A stretch of DNA of 64,000 nucleotides from assembly GCA_965242865.1 (NCBI GenBank), contig CBDETK010000013.1, forward strand, positions 480,001-544,000, read 5' to 3'. Below are positions 6,938 to 61,120 of the stretch, piece after piece. The translations under genes and the position numbers were made by a program. Each line of letters starts with the position of its first letter. The stretch's first letter is position 1. This DNA comes from Candidatus Latescibacterota bacterium (lineage in GTDB: Bacteria; Latescibacterota; UBA2968; UBA8231). The notes under the pieces were generated by a model, which did not search any database, had not been told where the DNA came from, and saw only the letters and a program-made list of their open reading frames with translations.

Positions 6938-6948
6938 GGGTATTGGGC

Positions 6949-7836
6949 GTGAAAAAGCGCAGCCGCGAGCTCAACATCTTTAGCATGTCCGCGCTCGACC
7001 TGTTCGCCTCGGCTCTCGGTGCCTTCATCCTCATTACCATCGTGCTGCTGCCCTTTTTTCCGAATCTAAATCTGTCGGGGCATGAAAAGGCCGAGTTGGA
7101 GCAGGCCAAGGCCGAGTTGGAGCAGGCCAAGGCCGAGCTAGAAAAAGAAAAAGCCAAGCAGGCCAAGCTGGCGAGAGAGAAGGCCAGATTAGAGCGCGAG
7201 AAAGCCGAGCTGGAGCGGGCCAAGGCCAAAGCCCCGAAAACAAAAAGTCAGCTCGAAAAACGGGTGGAGGCTTTGCAACAGGAGATCGACGACACCACCG
7301 TTTTATTGGGCATTAAGACCAAGGCGAAAAAGTTCGCGTTTGTCATAGACATGTCGGGCAGCATTTACCAGCCATCGCACAACGATTATCGCCCGTTCAT
7401 AACATTATCCATCCAAGACATGCTCGCGGCCTTTACGTCGGAAATAGAGGTCTGTCTCATTGGTTTTCAAGGCTCGAATACGTTGCACTATTGGCCGCAA
7501 AGCAGAGGGTACTTTCAGGTAAAAAAGAATACGCGCAATCGCGTGGTCAAACAGGTGGAACGCTGGATGAGCTTGGTGAATGGCGGCACGCCCACGCGCA
7601 CCGCTTTGCTGGCGGCGATTGCATTGCACCCCGAAGAGATCATCCTATTGAGCGATGGCGCTCCCTCAGAGGATTGGAGCATGGTCGTGCGGGCTGTGAC
7701 GGCAGAAAACAGGCGGCGCATACCCATCCACGCCGTAGCCGTTGGTCATTACACGGCAGACCGGAACTTTATTGATTTTTTAGTGCAGCTAACCAAGCGG
7801 AACAAGGGGTATGTCGTGGGAGCTAAACCGGGTTGA
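6949..7836 (+). CDS. Membrane-anchored coiled-coil + VWA domain protein
   Basis: N-terminal SALDLFASALGAFILI anchor, AELEQAK heptads (21-bp tandem repeat 7087-7137), MIDAS DMSGS...GGT...LSDG. Confidence 0.85.
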   Translation: MKKRSRELNIFSMSALDLFASALGAFILITIVLLPFFPNLNLSGHEKAELEQAKAELEQAKAELEKEKAKQAKLAREKARLEREKAELERAKAKAPKTKSQLEKRVEALQQEIDDTTVLLGIKTKAKKFAFVIDMSGSIYQPSHNDYRPFITLSIQDMLAAFTSEIEVCLIGFQGSNTLHYWPQSRGYFQVKKNTRNRVVKQVERWMSLVNGGTPTRTALLAAIALHPEEIILLSDGAPSEDWSMVVRAVTAENRRRIPIHAVAVGHYTADRNFIDFLVQLTKRNKGYVVGAKPG

Positions 7837-7849
7837 TATAGCAATCTTT

Positions 7850-8598
7850 CCGCACGGTGCCCCGTCCGCCCCGGATCGAGCGATACCCCTGCTGTCGTCC
7901 ACTGTCGTTCGCCCAAGGGGCGAGGCCGACCCGCGCGGTCACCTTTTTGCCGCTCCACTGGCCTAATTCCGGCAGATACCCCACCAGCGTCGCCGCGGTC
8001 CGCTCGCCGACGCCCGGTACACTCTGGTATAGGGCCGCCGACGCGGCCAGCGAGCCGTTGTTTTTCAACGCCGCCCGGTGGGCTTCCTCCACCTGTGCAA
8101 TCTCTTCGTCGAGCCACTGGAGATGTCGCTCAATGGAGGTGCGGGCCTCTTCGGTCGGCCCTTTGTCCAGCCGCTGGTGCTCCTGCACCCGCTGTTGAAC
8201 CAACGGCTTACGCCGGCGCAGCAGGTCTTGGAGTTCCTCCCGATCGGCTTCCTTGGCCAACGGGCGCGGCATCGGGAAGACCGCCCCATACCGCGCCAGC
8301 ATATCCGGGCGTCCAAAGCGTCGGTCTTGGCCTGGTGACCGGCTGCCCGCACGAAGCGGCGCACGCGATTGGGGTGTGCTACGTGGACCGCCACCCCCAT
8401 GCGCTGCAACCACCGCACCGCCGCCCGCTCATAGCCCCCCGTCGGTTCGCACACCACCTCGGTCGCCCCCTGACGGGTCAACCATGCCCCCAAAACCGCA
8501 AAGCCCGTGGGGGTGTTCTCGAACCGACGCACCGGACCCGCCGACACCGACACGTCCAAACTCCTCTTGCCTACATCCATACCGGCAATGACTTTCAT
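7850..8598 (-). pseudogene. IS110 DEDD recombinase/transposase, frameshifted and 3'-truncated
   Basis: GMDVGK, CEPTGGYE and AKTDALDA in one frame; SVPGVG, VGLAP..NDSG and IRGGR in another. An extra AT at about 8301-8304 shifts the frame, and the usual C-terminal helices are absent. GGAGG RBS at 8607-8611. Confidence 0.9.
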
Positions 8599-8624
8599 AC
8601 GAATAGCCTCCTGGTTATAATGAT

Positions 8625-8812
8625 GCTGTCCTCCACACTTGTAATGCGGGCCTTGGGCCCCTGTATCCGTTCGGAGCGACAACAGGATGGCCGGGTGAGG
8701 GGTGTCGTACTCCCGCACGGTGCCGCTGTCCACACGGACCGCGCACCCAATGACGCACGACGCGCCCCTCACCCGGCCCCTCAGAGTGGCCAAGCGGAAA
8801 CCCGGCCGCAAC
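8625..8812 (-). ncRNA. Putative IS110 bridge RNA
   Basis: Perfect 14-bp stem 8689-8702/8765-8778 closes a loop with target-matching segments; a second loop has donor-matching segments (8638-8643, 8663-8670). Boundaries approximate. Confidence 0.75.
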
Positions 8813-8817
8813 ATACA

Positions 8818-8880
8818 AATGACCCTTAGAGTAGTCAGGCAAGACGAGACAAAAGCAACATGAGTGTTAAGAACGCTTCT
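8818..8880. repeat. 63-bp intergenic segment, copy 1 (copy 2 at 16081-16143)
   Basis: 57/63 identical by manual alignment. Confidence 0.9.
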
Positions 8881-8963
8881 TATGGTTTTGCCAAAGGTTC
8901 AGTGCCATTCTCGCGCTGTCCCTTGGCGTTTACTTTTTCCATTCCCTGAGGAGGTTACTAATC

Positions 8964-11060
8964 GTGTTGAAACTCGCCGTTGTTGCCGGCTTTATGGTAT
9001 GGAGTAGCCCGGCGGCGATCCGGTGGGACTTCGACGGAGAGACGACGCAAGGATGGGCGGCTAAAAAGAGCATCTCATCCGGTGGCCGGCACGTCTTTCA
9101 CCTATTGGCCAGTGAGGTCAAAGACAGCGTGTGGGTGATCGAGCCCTTTCGCTCGGATGACCACAATCCGAGTGTCGAAGTGATTTCTCCGACGATAGAC
9201 TACGATTCGCGTCTTTTCGACCGGGTGCGAGTGCGATTTCGGATCGCACATCATCGCCCTGCGTTGGGTTCCTTAGCCCTGCGCTGGACGAATCAACACA
9301 ACCGTACTTCTCCGGGTAGGGATCCTGAGCCATCGAAAGGTCGGTTTGGGATTCTCGTACAAGGCGACTTCGTTTATACGACCGAGTGGCAAGAAGTAGA
9401 AATTGACCTTGCCAGTCATCGCAAGGCTCTGTGGGATGGTATGTTACGGGATATTCGGCTGAGTTTTTCCTTGGATCGAGGTGAAACAGGAGTGCCCCGG
9501 CCGGCCGAGGAAAAAGTTGGCCGCTTGGCGATTGATTGGATTGAGTTGACCGGCGTGGAAGAGATCGTACAGGGGGAACTACCGCCGCCTCAAGCCGAGT
9601 ATTTTCGCTTTGAAGGAGGTCAGTACTTTGCTCAGCCAGTCTTTCTTCCTATTGTGCTAGGTTTAGGGGGGTTCTTCGTCTTCGATAGGGCTAGCGTTTT
9701 AACGGACTTGGATAGCGATGGCGACTTAGACCTTTTTTCTGCTTGGGAGGATACCCCACCGAGGAAGTGGCCTATCTCCGGTTGGGTTATGGCCCACAAC
9801 GACGGTAAGGGGTCCCTTGAGCCTGTACTCACAGCGGAGACGCCGGTCTCACCAAGGGTACACGCCGGCGATTTGACCGGCGATGGCCAAGACGAGATTG
9901 TGCTGGCTGGTTGGCCTGACATAGCAGTTGTGTCTATGGGATCAGACCTCGAGACCGAGGAGCTCGTGCAGATAAGCGATCGCTTATTTAAGGGCCTAGC
10001 GGATTGGGATGGTGACGGCGATGTCGAACTCTTTTCCACAGCACTCGAATACGATTCAAACGGATATCCAGCAGACGGAGAGGCCCATTTTGAAGTATGG
10101 GATGTAGCAAACGGGGTGTGGTCGGCTGCGCAATTGGCAAAACCTGAAAACGGCCCCCTCTACCTCTATCAGATCGGCGACCTTACCGGCAATGGGATGC
10201 TGGAGGGTCTATGGATGTCGGGCTTCGGCGACGCATCCACTTGGCAGGTGACTCGCTTGGGCGAAGTGCTCGTGGCGGGCGAACCATTGGCCTTTGAGTC
10301 GGGTGGTTGGCCTCTTTTTTTACAAGGGAACGATGTGGATGACGATGGGCAGGTAGAGTTGCTGACGGCCCTGCGCTACGACGGTGCTGAACAACGCAAG
10401 GGACTGGTTGTACAGAGCAGCCGCCCCGGCGGTGTTGTAGAGACGGAGGTGTTGTATGATGAGCGGCTGTTTTTGCGCTCGCCGGTGGTGGTGGGCGACT
10501 TAAATGCCGATGGGGTTGAGGACTGGGCGTTTGTCGGCGGCGATCGTGCGTCGGGCTTTGGGGTGTTCGTCGAATGGGGCGGAGGCGTGACCCCAACAGA
10601 AGACGTGGAAACGCATCGCTTAGAGGGCGATGGGGTACAGGTACTGCCGGGCGATATCGATGGCGACGGCGATGTCGATTTGGTGGTGTTGGATCCGGTC
10701 TTGGGCGGTGTGCATCTGCTCAAGAGTTCGCTGAGCGATCCGCTAACAGCGGTGCTAACGCCGACGGCAGCGCGACCGGCGCAATATCGGCTGGGCGACA
10801 GCTATCCCAACCCGTTCAATCCGGCGGTGGTGTTGCCGCTTGATTTGGCAACGGACGCGGCGAGCGTGTCGCTGACCGTGTACGACGTGTTGGGTCGTCG
10901 GGTGCGGCAGGTGTGGGACGGGCCGCTGGGGGCGGGGAGCCATCGGTTTACTTGGGATGGCCGCGACGAGGCGGGTAAGGCCGTGGCCGCGGGCGTGTAT
11001 ATCTATCGCGTCGAGATGGACGGGCGAGTCGAAGCGAAAAAGACGACGAAGCTGCCTTAG
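8964..11060 (+). CDS. Secreted FG-GAP/VCBS-repeat protein with FlgD-Ig/T9SS-like C-terminal domain, paralog 1
   Basis: Signal peptide, repeated DxDGDGDxD loops, C-terminal YPNPFNP...YDVLGRRVR...WDGRD...GVYIYR; GAGGAGG RBS. Confidence 0.88.
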   Translation: MLKLAVVAGFMVWSSPAAIRWDFDGETTQGWAAKKSISSGGRHVFHLLASEVKDSVWVIEPFRSDDHNPSVEVISPTIDYDSRLFDRVRVRFRIAHHRPALGSLALRWTNQHNRTSPGRDPEPSKGRFGILVQGDFVYTTEWQEVEIDLASHRKALWDGMLRDIRLSFSLDRGETGVPRPAEEKVGRLAIDWIELTGVEEIVQGELPPPQAEYFRFEGGQYFAQPVFLPIVLGLGGFFVFDRASVLTDLDSDGDLDLFSAWEDTPPRKWPISGWVMAHNDGKGSLEPVLTAETPVSPRVHAGDLTGDGQDEIVLAGWPDIAVVSMGSDLETEELVQISDRLFKGLADWDGDGDVELFSTALEYDSNGYPADGEAHFEVWDVANGVWSAAQLAKPENGPLYLYQIGDLTGNGMLEGLWMSGFGDASTWQVTRLGEVLVAGEPLAFESGGWPLFLQGNDVDDDGQVELLTALRYDGAEQRKGLVVQSSRPGGVVETEVLYDERLFLRSPVVVGDLNADGVEDWAFVGGDRASGFGVFVEWGGGVTPTEDVETHRLEGDGVQVLPGDIDGDGDVDLVVLDPVLGGVHLLKSSLSDPLTAVLTPTAARPAQYRLGDSYPNPFNPAVVLPLDLATDAASVSLTVYDVLGRRVRQVWDGPLGAGSHRFTWDGRDEAGKAVAAGVYIYRVEMDGRVEAKKTTKLP

Positions 11061-11112: not shown

Positions 11113-11231
11113 TATAGCAGTCCTAAATGACTCGAAAACATGGAATGTTGATCGGCACCGTCTTTTCTACCTATGAAAAGTCATTCCCGCAACAGCGGGA
11201 ATCCAGTCTTGAATGATGTAAGATTGCGATA
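11113..11231. mobile_element. MITE-like ~119-bp element with internal GTCATTCCCGC-N4-GCGGGAATC palindrome, copy 1
   Basis: Imperfect terminal inverted repeats (TATAGCAGTCCTAAATGA / ATGATGTAAGATTGCGATA); second copy at 61004-61120. Confidence 0.75.
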
Positions 11232-61008: not shown

Positions 61009-61120
61009 CTATCCTAAATGACTTGAAAGCACGGAATGTTCATCGACGCTGTTTTTTGCATAGAGTCGTCATTCCCGCGAACGCGGGAATCCAGTCTTGA
61101 ATGATGTAGAATTGTATATA
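61004..61120. mobile_element. MITE-like element, copy 2
   Basis: Colinear with 11113-11231; contains CGTCATTCCCGCGAACGCGGGAATCC. Confidence 0.75.

What the first reader, a model, noticed from the sequence alone, without database searches (positions are those of the whole stretch)
8625..8823. IS110 bridge RNA whose guides can be read off and point to the genome's GTCATTCCCGC palindrome
Seen: on the minus strand, upstream of the IS110 recombinase, a small 5' hairpin is followed by a perfect 14-bp stem (8765-8778/8689-8702). The enclosed loop carries CGUCAUU (8755-8749) on one side and GCGGGA (8716-8711, complementary to TCCCGC) on the other; together they spell the target CGTCATT+CCCGC. That exact 12-mer occurs at 61067-61078, and GTCATTCCCGC occurs at 11180-11190. 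The actual left junction reads GGGTCA-TT-TGTAT, i.e. target-left, core, element end. A second loop carries ACGGAUAC (8670-8663) and UACAAG (8643-8638, complementary to the TTGTA end). Established: this is the order of the IS621 bridge RNA (5' hairpin, target loop, donor loop), whose donor also ends in TGTAT and whose target is a REP. Inference: this is an RNA-programmed recombinase targeting a different (dRS3-like) repeat family, apparently with a TT target core and a predicted CT donor core (ACGGATA-CT-TGTAT).
Basis: partly seen in the sequence, partly recalled or inferred. Interest (0 to 1): 0.92.

Follow-up and report, generated by a model that had tools for sequence, protein, structure and literature searches.

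The report
Dead IS110 copy with bridge RNA
A broken copy of an IS110-type jumping gene still carries an intact-looking guide ("bridge") RNA gene whose loops spell out the palindromic repeat that its intact relatives insert into; it is a clean new example of a known RNA-guided recombinase system, not a new kind.

Summary

Window ~7845-8817 (minus strand) is a decayed IS110-group insertion sequence:
- The left end encodes a ~190-nt RNA with a 5' hairpin, a target-binding loop and a donor-binding loop.
- The recombinase gene has a 2-base frameshift and has lost its 3' part. The right end is missing.

Intact relatives in related genomes sit at GTCATT|...ACAGATACT|CCCGC, inside a GTCATTCCCGC-N4-GCGGGAATCCAG palindrome. 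That 11-mer occurs 89 times in this genome.

Right-end relics in this genome end in ACGGATACT|CCCGC, exactly as this copy's donor loop (ACGGAUAC) predicts.

A second IS110 subfamily (~40% protein identity) carries different guides at the same RNA positions. They match its different flanks: the right-target guide matches 7/7 for four different targets.

The left junction core is TT (36 of 37). The right junction core is CT (21 of 21).

No RNA or activity data exist, and this genome has no intact IS110 recombinase. The window copy is therefore a relic.

Verdict: a new member of a known kind, of moderate interest. The more novel lead is a set of recurrent deletion relics whose breakpoints fall at guide-like YT sites.

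The parts
8818..8825 (-). Left flank: left target half GGGTCA (8825-8820) plus core TT (8819-8818)
   Evidence: Read. The same GTCATT lies before TGTATG in 36 of 37 genus junctions.
8813..8817 (-). Element left terminus, right-donor half TGTAT. A -10-like TATGTT lies at 8815-8810.
   Evidence: Homology among copies starts here. It lies 17 nt from the right-end TTGAC[ACG] once the ends are joined (read; promoter function is inferred).
8788..8807 (-). 5' hairpin of the bridge RNA
   Evidence: MFE fold. In homologues a longer hairpin at the same place has 3 pairs with compensatory changes (helix 1). The window and L002 use an alternative pairing.
8689..8778 (-). Target-binding stem-loop: outer 14-bp stem 8765-8778/8689-8702, internal loop, inner stem-loop 8719-8747
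   Evidence: In one search, helices 2-4 have 8 pairs with changes on both sides.
8749..8755 (-). Left target guide (LTG) CGUCAUU, the same sense as the target left half plus TT core
   Evidence: It matches the flanks of intact homologues at the 5-7 positions nearest the core (6-7 of 9 overall; 4 of 9 in L023).
8708..8716 (-). Right target guide (RTG) GCGGGAG (8716-8710) plus handshake dinucleotide UA (8709-8708). Together they are complementary to TA-CT-CCCGC, the right junction.
   Evidence: RTG matches 7/7 in 8 of 9 computed elements, across five different right targets.
8631..8676 (-). Donor-binding stem-loop: outer stem CUCC 8676-8673 / GGAG 8634-8631, inner stem-loop 8648-8660
   Evidence: helices 5, 6. 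The stems change compensatorily in subfamily 2 (alignments).
8663..8670 (-). Left donor guide (LDG) ACGGAUAC, matching right-end relics that end in ACGGATAC-T
   Evidence: Subfamily 2 has ACAGUUGC against a right end of ACAGTTGC-T.
8636..8643 (-). Right donor guide (RDG) UACAAG (8643-8638; CAAG conserved) plus handshake UG (8637-8636), complementary to CA-CT-TGTA
8305..8598 (-). Recombinase N-terminal fragment (98 aa, DEDD_Tnp_IS110). A ribosome-binding site AGGAGG lies at 8612-8607.
   Evidence: Pfam E 1.9e-13.
8301..8305 (-). Frameshift: GATAT where intact homologues and own copy L002 read GAT (2 extra bases)
   Evidence: Comparison.
7845..8302 (-). Recombinase middle part (Transposase_20 domain, truncated). 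Homology to intact elements ends at about 7842-7848. The last ~60 codons and the right end are missing.
11180..11206 (+). Unoccupied target palindrome GTCATTCCCGC-AACA-GCGGGAATCCAG
61067..61094 (+). Unoccupied target palindrome CGTCATTCCCGC-GAAC-GCGGGAATCCAG (full 12-nt match to LTG plus RT)

Best explanation
Window ~7845-8817 (minus strand) is a decayed copy of an IS110-group insertion sequence. Its left end encodes a bridge RNA of the IS621 type: a 5' hairpin, a target-binding loop and a donor-binding loop.

How the intact relatives work (inferred from IS621):
- The recombinase excises the element as a circle.
- Joining the ends puts a right-end TTGAC[ACG] 17 nt upstream of a left-end TATGTT, which would drive the RNA.
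- The target loop reads the palindromic repeat. [quoted passage not shown] - The donor loop reads the joined ends. LDG AC(A/G/C)GAUAC pairs with the right end. RDG CAAG pairs with CT-TG of the left end.
- Exchange after the T of the core puts the element between GTCATT and CCCGC.

The first core base is not shared. It is T in the target and the left junction, and C in the donor and the right junction. It therefore travels with the left arm, as expected if the top strand decides the product.

The window copy cannot move or be used. Its recombinase gene is frameshifted and 3'-truncated, its right end is gone, and no intact IS110 recombinase was found in this genome.

Shown: sequence anatomy, insertion-site specificity, structure covariation, guide-flank covariation. 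Inferred: RNA expression, base-pairing in vivo, chemistry and promoter.
For: Protein:
- The fragments hit DEDD_Tnp_IS110 and Transposase_20.
- The intact homologue P0003 matches the solved ISCro4 (9t56, E 4.5e-40) and IS621 (8wt6, E 1.5e-35) recombinases over residues 5-305.

RNA structure, on 10 subfamily-1 left ends:
- 38 pairs, 91.5% of cells paired, against 40-52% when the partner is slid.
- 11 pairs changed on both sides, against 1-5 in the slid controls.
- A covariance model built from them finds the left ends of a ~40%-identical subfamily on the right strand and at the right place: L021 4e-6, L019 1e-5, L018 3e-4, L020 0.15.

Insertion sites:
- Left junction: 36 of 37 GTCA-TT-TGTATGT in 7 of 31 genus genomes.
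- Right junction: 21 of 21 distinct junctions read GATA-CT, followed by CCCGC in 16, ACCGC in 4 and CTCGT in 1.
- Target 11-mer: 89 copies against about 4 expected, 83 of them inside the hairpin repeat.

Guides (9 of 11 elements computed, with L010 and L011 read by eye):
- RTG is 7/7 complementary to core+RT in 8 elements and 6/7 in 1, for five different RTs: CCCGC, TGTGG, TTCGT, ACGGC, TTTTC.
- LDG matches LD plus the first core base 8/8 in 6 of the 9 elements (all of subfamily 2 and L015) and 7/8 in the other three.
- The handshake bases next to RTG and RDG covary with donor and target position 7 (U-A in subfamily 1, C-G or G-C in subfamily 2).
- This genome's own right-end relics end in ACGGATACT|CCCGC, matching this copy's LDG ACGGAUAC. 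Other genomes have ACAGATACT.

These features are the ones defined for IS621 in PMC11208160 (passages) and PMC11208158 (passages).
Against: - No RNA evidence. No RNA run holds the stretch, so nothing can be said either way. No Rfam family matched.
- No joined right-end/left-end sequence was found in 31 genus assemblies. So the donor circle and its promoter are inferred.
- No sigma-70-like site lies upstream of the RNA on the minus strand in the integrated state.
- Imperfect guide matches. LTG matches only 6-7 of 9 positions, and 4 of 9 in L023. The LDG third base is C against A in the G139 and G118 copies. The ninth LDG base never matches the core T. RDG matches beyond CAAG only in subfamily 1.
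- RNAalifold and the MFE fold pair 2-3 bases of LTG with RTG.
- The window's 5' hairpin breaks several consensus pairs (helix 1).
- In G118, degenerate copies carry LTG alleles that do not match their own flanks.
Confidence: 0.9

Rival explanations
1. The structured left end is only a leader or attenuator for the recombinase gene, or an N-terminal coding extension, with no guide role. The loop-target matches would come from repeat DNA captured at the element end.
For: An open frame runs from ATG 8814 through the left end into the recombinase frame (ORF 8065-8814). A similar one exists in L002. The genome is 61% G+C, so long open frames are common.
Against: - Homologous left ends differ by 1-, 2- and 6-base indels, which would break any frame (alignment).
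- A ribosome-binding site AGGAGG precedes the ATG at 8598, and the Pfam domain starts at residue 5 of that protein.
- Stems keep pairing through double changes.
- RTG is antisense to the target and lies 40 nt from LTG, so this is not a captured repeat.
- Subfamily 2 has different loops that match different flanks.
Confidence: 0.03
2. The window copy is still functional in trans: its bridge RNA is made and used by a recombinase encoded elsewhere in the cell.
For: All helices and all four guides of the RNA gene are intact in the window copy (175 bits against the family model). Bridge RNAs are reported to work in trans (PMC11208160, passage).
Against: - Only two DEDD_Tnp_IS110 matches exist in the 93.6%-complete genome. 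Both are the broken copies.
- The right end that supplies the -35 box is missing, and no promoter-like site was found upstream on the minus strand.
Confidence: 0.05
3. Site choice comes from protein or DNA-structure recognition of the palindrome, and the loop matches are a by-product. A sequence-structure gate of this kind is reported for ISPpu10.
For: The right target half CCCGC is the 5' arm of a hairpin in 83 of 89 target copies. A target stem-loop adds specificity for ISPpu10 (abstract and passages of 10.64898/2026.03.19.712850).
Against: - The other arm of the same palindrome (CTGGA-TT-CCCGC, 125 copies) has the same core, right half and hairpin but is not used in this genome. The discriminating bases are exactly those read by LTG (12 of 12 left junctions at GTCATT).
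- Three subfamily-2 targets (L020, L021, L022) differ completely from one another and still match RTG 7/7. Whether they are palindromic was not tested.
- In ISPpu10 the stem-loop adds to base pairing and does not replace it.
Confidence: 0.02

Closest known systems
IS621 (E. coli) recombinase plus bridge RNA (Durrant et al. 2024, PMC11208160; Hiraizumi et al. 2024, PMC11208158)
   Same: - The recombinase has the same two domains and aligns over its full length (E 1.5e-35).
- The RNA is encoded in the left end, in the order 5' hairpin, target loop, donor loop.
- LTG and LDG are sense to the left halves. RTG and RDG are antisense to core plus right halves.
- Handshake bases lie next to RTG and RDG.
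- The second core base is T.
- The target is a repetitive palindrome.
- The -35 box lies in the right end and the -10 box in the left end.
   Different: - Different phylum (the closest records are titled Candidatus Latescibacterota) and a different repeat.
- The target core is TT while the donor core is CT. LTG has UU, but RTG, LDG and RDG stay CT-type.
- The LTG match is shorter (5-7 nt).
- The window copy is dead.
- No experimental data.
ISPpu10 / ISPpu9 of Pseudomonas putida, IS110 elements in REP sequences (10.64898/2026.03.19.712850; PMC12288879, search listing only)
   Same: REP-targeting IS110 elements with a bridge RNA. Natural wobble pairs occur at guide-target interfaces, and the target lies next to a GC-rich hairpin.
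   Different: There the hairpin is a 5' extension of the target. Here the right target half is itself the 5' arm of the hairpin. The core is CT in both partners there.
ISCro4 recombinase (PDB 9t56)
   Same: It is the best solved-structure match of the intact homologue (E 4.5e-40, residues 5-305).
   Different: Only the protein was compared.
IS1111-group elements (RNA in the right end)
   Same: Same recombinase family and the same guide logic (PMC11208160, passage).
   Different: There the RNA lies in the right end and the subterminal inverted repeats are long. Here the RNA lies in the left end, and the non-coding right end is only about 50 nt after the stop codon.
Neisseria dRS3 repeats (ATTCCC-N8-GGGAAT), integration sites of Nf filamentous prophages (PMC3898611, passages)
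   Same: The short-loop target repeat here, ATTCCCGC-N4-GCGGGAAT, fits the dRS3 pattern letter for letter. Both are abundant intergenic palindromes used as integration sites.
   Different: There is no evidence of common descent. The phylum, flanks and long-loop variant differ. That the Nf integrase is IS110-like is recalled, not tested here.

Membership tests
IS110-group insertion sequence with bridge RNA (IS621 type) | Recombinase with an N-terminal RuvC-like DEDD domain and a C-terminal Tnp domain bearing the catalytic serine | tested here: met
   PF01548 and PF02371 hit the intact homologue and the two window fragments. The homologue aligns full-length to the IS621 and ISCro4 chains. The motifs GxDVGK, CExTGGY, KTDAxDA and NDSG are visible in P0002, P0001 and P0003. 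Which residues are catalytic is taken from the papers and from recall. The window copy is frameshifted and truncated.
IS110-group insertion sequence with bridge RNA (IS621 type) | [quoted passage not shown] | tested here: met
   The left end is 219 nt before the ATG. The consensus fold shows this architecture with 11 of 38 pairs compensatory. Model R1 finds the same architecture in a 40%-identical subfamily.
IS110-group insertion sequence with bridge RNA (IS621 type) | First internal loop: LTG sense to left target plus core; RTG antisense to core plus right target | tested here: met
   Coordinates. Flanks of intact elements. Table (RTG 7/7 in 8 of 9; LTG 6-7 of 9, but 4 of 9 in L023).
IS110-group insertion sequence with bridge RNA (IS621 type) | Second internal loop: LDG sense to the right-end terminus; RDG antisense to core plus left-end terminus | tested here: met
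   LDG matches LD plus the first core base 8/8 in 6 of 9 elements and 7/8 in 3. RDG CAAG matches CT-TG in all 9. This genome's own right-end relics match the window LDG.
IS110-group insertion sequence with bridge RNA (IS621 type) | Loops covary with target and donor across orthologues | tested here: met
   Five different RTs have matching RTGs. LD ACAGATA against ACAGTTG is matched by the LDGs. Handshake position 7 covaries. Only two subfamilies and 11 elements were examined, and kin are not independent.
IS110-group insertion sequence with bridge RNA (IS621 type) | Identical CT core dinucleotide in target and donor | tested here: not met
   The second base T is kept. The first base is T in the target and left junction (36 of 37; GTCACTCCCGC 0 copies against GTCATTCCCGC 89) and C at the right junction (21 of 21). 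PMC11208158 states that the first core base is less conserved and that TT cores work for IS621. This is therefore a variant within the family's known tolerance, not an exclusion.
IS110-group insertion sequence with bridge RNA (IS621 type) | Promoter rebuilt across the joined right and left ends | tested here: inconclusive
   TTGAC[ACG] ends 15 nt before the right-end terminus in 21 of 21 right ends, although G142 has TGGACG. TATGTT starts at base 3 of the left end. The spacer would be 17 nt, and subfamily 2 has the same geometry. No joined sequence was found and no transcript data exist.
IS110-group insertion sequence with bridge RNA (IS621 type) | RNA is made, binds the recombinase and is required for recombination | not testable with these tools
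   This needs RNA-seq, binding and recombination assays.
Rfam RNA families | Match to a curated covariance model | tested here: not met
   No bridge-RNA family among the matches at E <= 10. Whether Rfam 15 holds such a family is unknown to me.

The most novel reading that the evidence does not exclude
The genomes of this genus may preserve a natural record of off-register ('half-match') bridge recombination.

- In nine relics the exact right terminus partner (|CCCGC, or a decayed form of it) is joined to an internal left-end site ending in YT.
- Three of these, in three genomes, break exactly after the DNA that encodes the element's own left target guide (..GTCATT|CCCGC).
- That is the outcome expected if the recombinase-RNA complex treats the gene for its own guide as a left target half-site.
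- Five others, in two genomes, break after GGCCA-CT or GGCCACT-CT in the 5' hairpin. One breaks after ATTC-CT.

Two further observations fit trans-acting guides and a top-strand-determined product seen in nature:
- the TT (left) / CT (right) core asymmetry;
- in G118, the coexistence of two LTG alleles with two target types in mixed combinations.
Probability: 0.4. Interest if true: 0.55.

Novelty: new member of a known kind. Interest (0 to 1): 0.36.

Why it matters
It shows that bridge-RNA guides can be read directly from raw sequence and checked by comparative genomics alone.

It adds a documented IS110/bridge-RNA lineage from an uncultivated phylum, with these features:
- a defined 12-nt target;
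- a defined donor;
- a natural target/donor core mismatch (TT against CT);
- at least one active-looking relative, with 15 left-end matches and 14 right-end matches in G123, most of them at contig ends.

The intact orthologues could be tested as additional programmable recombinases.

The deletion relics give a genomic data set bearing on the current debate about half-match and top-strand-only recombination. They suggest a built-in hazard: the guide-encoding DNA mimics the target.

For annotating this window, the feature is an ordinary dead insertion sequence.

Tried and rejected
Rfam: only chance-level miRNA/lncRNA matches. No use.

Expression: no RNA holder is listed for window 8300-9000. Nine DNA or unknown-type runs from 3 studies hold part of it. 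Read laying was not used. This says nothing about expression.

Circle or tandem junction:
- A degenerate motif for the joined right end and left end was scanned in metagenome contigs.
- None of the 117 had bridge-RNA motifs downstream. Four had a TTGAC upstream by chance. With only 16 specified bases, chance matches swamp this scan, so it is uninformative.
- The stricter motif found 0 matches in 31 genus genomes.

Loose right-end pattern: 62 matches with a heavy background (the controls matched too).
- Only the 27 CT-CCCGC and 5 CT-ACCGC rows are relevant, and not all were checked for right-end context.
- Of the 2 TT-ACCGC rows, the one in this genome lies in unrelated sequence. The one in G139 was not checked.

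G118 LTG alleles:
- I tried to read them as natural retargeting. L036 fits (CGUGGAU against flank GGTGGAT, 6 of 7), and G118 has 9 copies of GTGGATCCCGC.
- L042, L046 and L052 do not match their own flanks, and all four copies are degenerate.
- This was left as a lead.

Other points:
- The MAFFT alignment of the two subfamilies was unreliable in the 5' half and was not used for pair counts.
- Model R1 missed L022 at E <= 1.
- Considered and rejected: a coding N-terminal extension, a captured repeat, and protein-only site choice (see the rival explanations).
- No structure prediction, complex prediction, protein-database search or atlas search was run. They were not needed.
- Supplements and figures of the papers were not visible. 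The IS621 wild-type donor sequence and the list of IS110 elements with predicted bridge RNAs (Supplementary Tables of PMC11208160) may bear on the 'TGTAT' claim and on whether this lineage was already catalogued.
Full report
WHAT IS THERE

On the minus strand the window holds GGGTCA-TT (8825-8818) followed by TGTATGTTGC... (from 8817). After that come a 219-nt non-coding stretch, a ribosome-binding site (8612-8607) and an ATG at 8598.

The reading frame gives 98 residues of a DEDD_Tnp_IS110 domain. It then shifts at GATAT (8305-8301), where intact relatives and this genome's second copy read GAT. It continues for about 150 residues into a Transposase_20 domain. Similarity to intact elements is lost at about 7842-7848, right beside the stop codon of a convergent gene (6943-7836).

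About 60 codons and the whole right end are missing. The genome (13 contigs, 93.6% complete) has only two matches to the IS110 recombinase domain. These are this copy and a second broken one at C13:3.61 Mb.

THE OBSERVATION

- the 14-bp stem 8778-8765/8702-8689;
- CGTCATT at 8755-8749;
- GCGGGA at 8716-8711, extended by G at 8710;
- ACGGATAC at 8670-8663;
- TACAAG at 8643-8638;
- the two target copies at 11180-11190 and 61067-61078.

Each of the four words occurs once and in the stated order. None of 200,000 shuffles of the 193-nt stretch held all four. The stretch folds better than its shuffles (z = -3.9).

RELATIVES

A collection scan with the recombinase fragment found intact elements in two records titled Candidatus Latescibacterota. 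Searches of the phylum and genus found more.

Six intact or nearly intact elements of the same subfamily are each 1137-1195 bp long: L009, L010, L011, L012, L015 and L023. They start TGTATGTTGC directly after ...GTCATT. They end ...ACAGATACT directly before CCCGC-N4-GCGGGAAT... or a long-loop form of the same palindrome.

Across the 31 genus genomes:
- The left-junction word GTCAYTTGTATGT occurs 37 times in 7 genomes, 36 times with TT and once with CT. The reversed control pattern gave 0.
- All 21 distinct right junctions with right-end context read GATA-CT, followed by CCCGC (16), ACCGC (4) or CTCGT (1).
- In G123 most matches to either end lie at contig ends (15 left-end and 14 right-end matches). 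That is the usual sign of a multi-copy, recently active element.

In this genome GTCATTCCCGC occurs 89 times (about 4 expected). Of these, 83 are the left arm of a hairpin repeat: 67 with a 4-nt loop and 16 with a long loop. The variant with a CT core, GTCACTCCCGC, occurs 0 times. The other arm of the palindrome reads CTGGA-TT-CCCGC (125 copies). It shares core, right half and hairpin but is not used in this genome. The bases that tell the two arms apart are the ones matched by the left target guide.

THE RNA

Ten left ends of the subfamily give a consensus fold:
- a 5' hairpin;
- a long stem enclosing an internal loop and an inner stem-loop;
- a second stem enclosing an internal loop and a short GGGCC/GGCCC hairpin.

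On a hand-trimmed structure of 38 pairs, 91.5% of cells pair (40-52% when the 3' partner is slid by 1-3 columns). Eleven pairs show changes on both sides, against 1-5 in the slid controls and 8 of 500 shuffles reaching that number. The sequences are related and the structure was derived from them, so these figures support the fold but do not prove it.

The two donor-loop helices do not vary within the subfamily. They do vary between subfamilies. A covariance model built from the ten sequences finds the left ends of a second subfamily at the right place and strand (L021 4e-6, L019 1e-5, L018 3e-4, L020 0.15; L022 missed). Its recombinases are about 40% identical. In its alignments the outer stem changes from CUCC/GGAG to ACCC/GGGU or ACUC/GAGU, and the inner stem from GGGCC/GGCCC to GGGGU/ACCCC.

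The guides lie in the internal loops. The energy models pair two or three bases of the left target guide with the right target guide. This is expected because both include the core.

GUIDES AGAINST FLANKS

The rules for IS621 are as follows (PMC11208160, passages):
- RTG and RDG pair with the top strand of core plus right halves.
- The core is included in all four.

In addition, two bases next to RTG and RDG ('handshake guides') pair after exchange with positions 6-7 of the incoming strand (PMC11208158, passages).

A script extracted guides by conserved anchors, and flanks by position, for 9 of 11 elements. L010 and L011 failed my right-end pattern because their -35 box reads TGGACG; I read them by eye.

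| Comparison | Result |
|---|---|
| RTG against core+RT | 7/7 in 8 elements, 6/7 in 1, for five different RTs: GCGGGAG/CT-CCCGC, CCACAAG/CT-TGTGG, ACGAAAG/CT-TTCGT, GCCGUAG/CT-ACGGC, GAAAAAG/CT-TTTTC |
| LDG against LD+first core base | ACAGUUGC/ACAGTTGC in all five subfamily-2 elements. ACAGAUAC/ACAGATAC in L015. ACCGAUAC/ACAGATAC (one mismatch) in the G139 and G118 copies |
| LTG against LT+core | 6-7 of 9, always the positions next to the core. 4 of 9 in L023 |
| RDG against core+RD | CAAG pairs with CT-TG everywhere. Subfamily 1 extends this to UACAAG/CT-TGTA |
| Base after RTG | Pairs with donor position 7: U-A in subfamily 1, C-G in subfamily 2 (9 of 9) |
| Base after RDG | Pairs with target position 7 in 7 of 9 |

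For the window itself, RTG plus handshake (GCGGGAGUA, 8716-8708) is complementary to the whole right junction TA-CT-CCCGC. RDG plus handshake (UACAAGUG, 8643-8636) is complementary to CA-CT-TGTA.

The window's LDG has G at its third base, where other genomes have A or C. This genome holds two right-end relics that end in ACGGATACT|CCCGC (C13:5117003 and C13:4936977) and one that ends in ACAGATACT|CCCGC.

THE CORE

The target and the left junction have TT. The donor end and the right junction have CT. LTG carries UU, whereas RTG (AG), LDG (C) and RDG (AG) are of the CT type. RTG therefore meets the natural target with a G.T wobble at position 8, and meets the incoming donor strand with a G-C pair.

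PMC11208158 states that the second core base is nearly invariant, that the first is less conserved, and that TT cores work for IS621. Natural wobbles at guide-target interfaces are reported for IS621 and ISPpu10 (10.64898/2026.03.19.712850).

The first core base stays with the left arm at both junctions. This fits a product decided by the top strand, which is cut after position 9. It holds whether bottom-strand mismatches are repaired (discussion passage of PMC11208158) or only the top strand is transferred (10.1101/2025.10.25.684509, passages; abstract of 10.64898/2026.08.31.748434). My data cannot separate these two. I found no paper that describes a natural element whose target and donor cores differ, but I made only one targeted search and could not see supplements.

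PROMOTER

In all 21 right ends, TTGAC[ACG] ends 15 nt before the terminus. The left end has TATGTT from its third base. Joined, they would give a 17-nt spacer, and subfamily 2 has the same geometry. This matches the promoter described across the joined ends of IS621 and ISPpu10. It remains inferred, because no joined sequence was found. In the integrated window copy no promoter-like site lies upstream on the minus strand.

VERDICT ON KIND

All defining features that can be tested in silico are met, except an identical CT core in target and donor. That exception lies within the tolerance reported for the family. This is an IS110-group element with a bridge RNA: a new lineage in a phylum without cultured members, targeting a new repeat. 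The window copy is a fossil. The finding is not a new mechanism.

WHAT ELSE THE GENOMES SHOW

This genome is a graveyard of the element. It has 12 left junctions, three right-end relics and no intact copy. Many relics are not random fragments.

- In three genomes the left end runs up to the DNA that encodes the left target guide and then continues with the right target half...GTCATT|CCCGC-loop-GCGGGAAT. These are G000 L005, G130 L037, and a decayed, complex case in G118 L089. This was 3 of 76 family genomes, with the control giving one match in one other genome.
- In G000 (three loci) and G139 (one locus) a 33-bp remnant TGTATG...GGCCACT is followed directly by CCCGC (CCCAC in one), inside otherwise different repeat copies. 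A fifth locus, in G139, breaks two bases later, after ...CCACTCT.
- One G000 relic breaks after ATTC-CT (C13:3060902).
- One right-end relic joins GTCATT to an internal ..CGCCATT|GCCCAG site, which matches LTG in 6 of 7 bases (C13:5117003).

In all of these, one breakpoint is the exact element terminus. The other follows a YT dinucleotide, with 1-3 bases of shared sequence. Random deletion would not place an end at the exact terminus each time.

The simplest reading is recombinase-made deletion between a cognate junction and a pseudo-site, with the guide-encoding DNA itself as the best pseudo-site. This fits the 'half-match' activity recently reported for IS621 (abstract only). Microhomology-mediated deletion, or spread of a mini-element, cannot be excluded. 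I put this reading at about 0.4.

In G118 two LTG alleles (CGUCAUU and CGUGGAU) and two flank types (CGTCATT and GGTGGAT) occur in mixed combinations in four degenerate copies. The genome also holds 9 copies of GTGGATCCCGC. This would fit guides acting in trans on any copy's circle, but it is thin evidence.

LIMITS

- There are no RNA, binding or activity data.
- Kin are not independent, and only two subfamilies were compared.
- E-values of model R1 are rough.
- Figures and supplements of the papers were not visible.

Noticed in passing
L005/L091 (G000:C13:1172876-1172956), L037/L090 (G130:C1:1612791-1612865), L089 (G118:C43:8215-8237): Left-end relics stop exactly after the DNA that encodes the left target guide and continue with the right target half (..GTCATT|CCCGC-loop-GCGGGAAT). 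They occur in three genomes with different flanks. This is as expected if the guide-encoding DNA was used as a pseudo left target. The G118 case is decayed and complex.
   Followed up: partly
L094, L096, L097 (G000:C13:119351, 5268139, 5334151); L093, L095 (G139:C1:1854876, 3366065): Inserts of 33-35 bp consist of the first bases of the left end (TGTATG...GGCCACT or ...GGCCACTCT) and sit precisely between GTCATT and CCCGC of otherwise different repeat copies. The breakpoint is the same in two genomes whose left-end sequences differ.
   Followed up: partly
L092 (G118:C77:66123-66162): A 35-bp mini element made of about 20 bases of the left end plus about 14 bases of the right end (..ACAGATACT), followed by CCCGC.
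   Followed up: no
G000:C13:5117003, 4936977, 1415212: Right-end-only relics. GTCATT is joined to the last 85-110 bases of the element, which ends in ACGGATACT (twice) or ACAGATACT before CCCGC. One junction lies at an internal CGCCATT that matches the left target guide in 6 of 7 bases.
   Followed up: partly
G000:C13:1142370, 2640422, 4129341, 900514: Four loci share one chimera: GTCATT, then about 24 bases of left end, then the usual upstream flank of the repeat (..TCGGCACGGTCTTTT..TAT), then GTCATTCCCGC. The left-end stub seems to have been copied along with a larger repeat unit (MITE-like; the flanks contain inverted AGAAGCGTTCTTAA-type arms).
   Followed up: no
L036, L042, L046, L052 (G118): Four degenerate copies carry left-target-guide alleles CGUGGAU, CGUCAUU and CGUGGUU. 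They sit at GGTGGAT(T) or CGTCATT in mixed combinations. G118 holds 9 GTGGATCCCGC and 17 GTGGATTCCCGC. This may be natural retargeting with guides acting in trans.
   Followed up: partly
L079-L082 (G123): Four independent right junctions read CT|ACCGC instead of CT|CCCGC. The first base after the cut differs, while the rest of the palindrome is normal. GTCATTACCGC is rare in G000 (2 copies). Not explained.
   Followed up: no
L035 (G123:C80:134-146): The single left junction with a CT core (GTCA-CT-TGTATG), out of 37.
   Followed up: no
L018-L022, L027 (G140, G145, G103, G041, G063, G125): A second IS110 subfamily (~40% identity) has right end ..ACAGTTGCT, left end TGTAT(G/C)TTG and individually different targets. 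Two members sit in a GGGGCGCCCCT|TGTGGGCGCCC-type palindrome.
   Followed up: partly
window 6943-7836 (+): The gene that abuts the truncated end of the element encodes a protein with an N-terminal membrane segment and tandem EQAKAEL-type repeats. It was not analysed. The deletion that removed the right end of the element ends within a few bases of its stop codon.
   Followed up: no
window 8065-8814 (-): A 249-codon open frame runs from the ATG inside TGTATGTTG through the whole RNA gene into the recombinase frame. Indels of 1, 2 and 6 bases among homologues show it is not conserved as coding sequence.
   Followed up: yes
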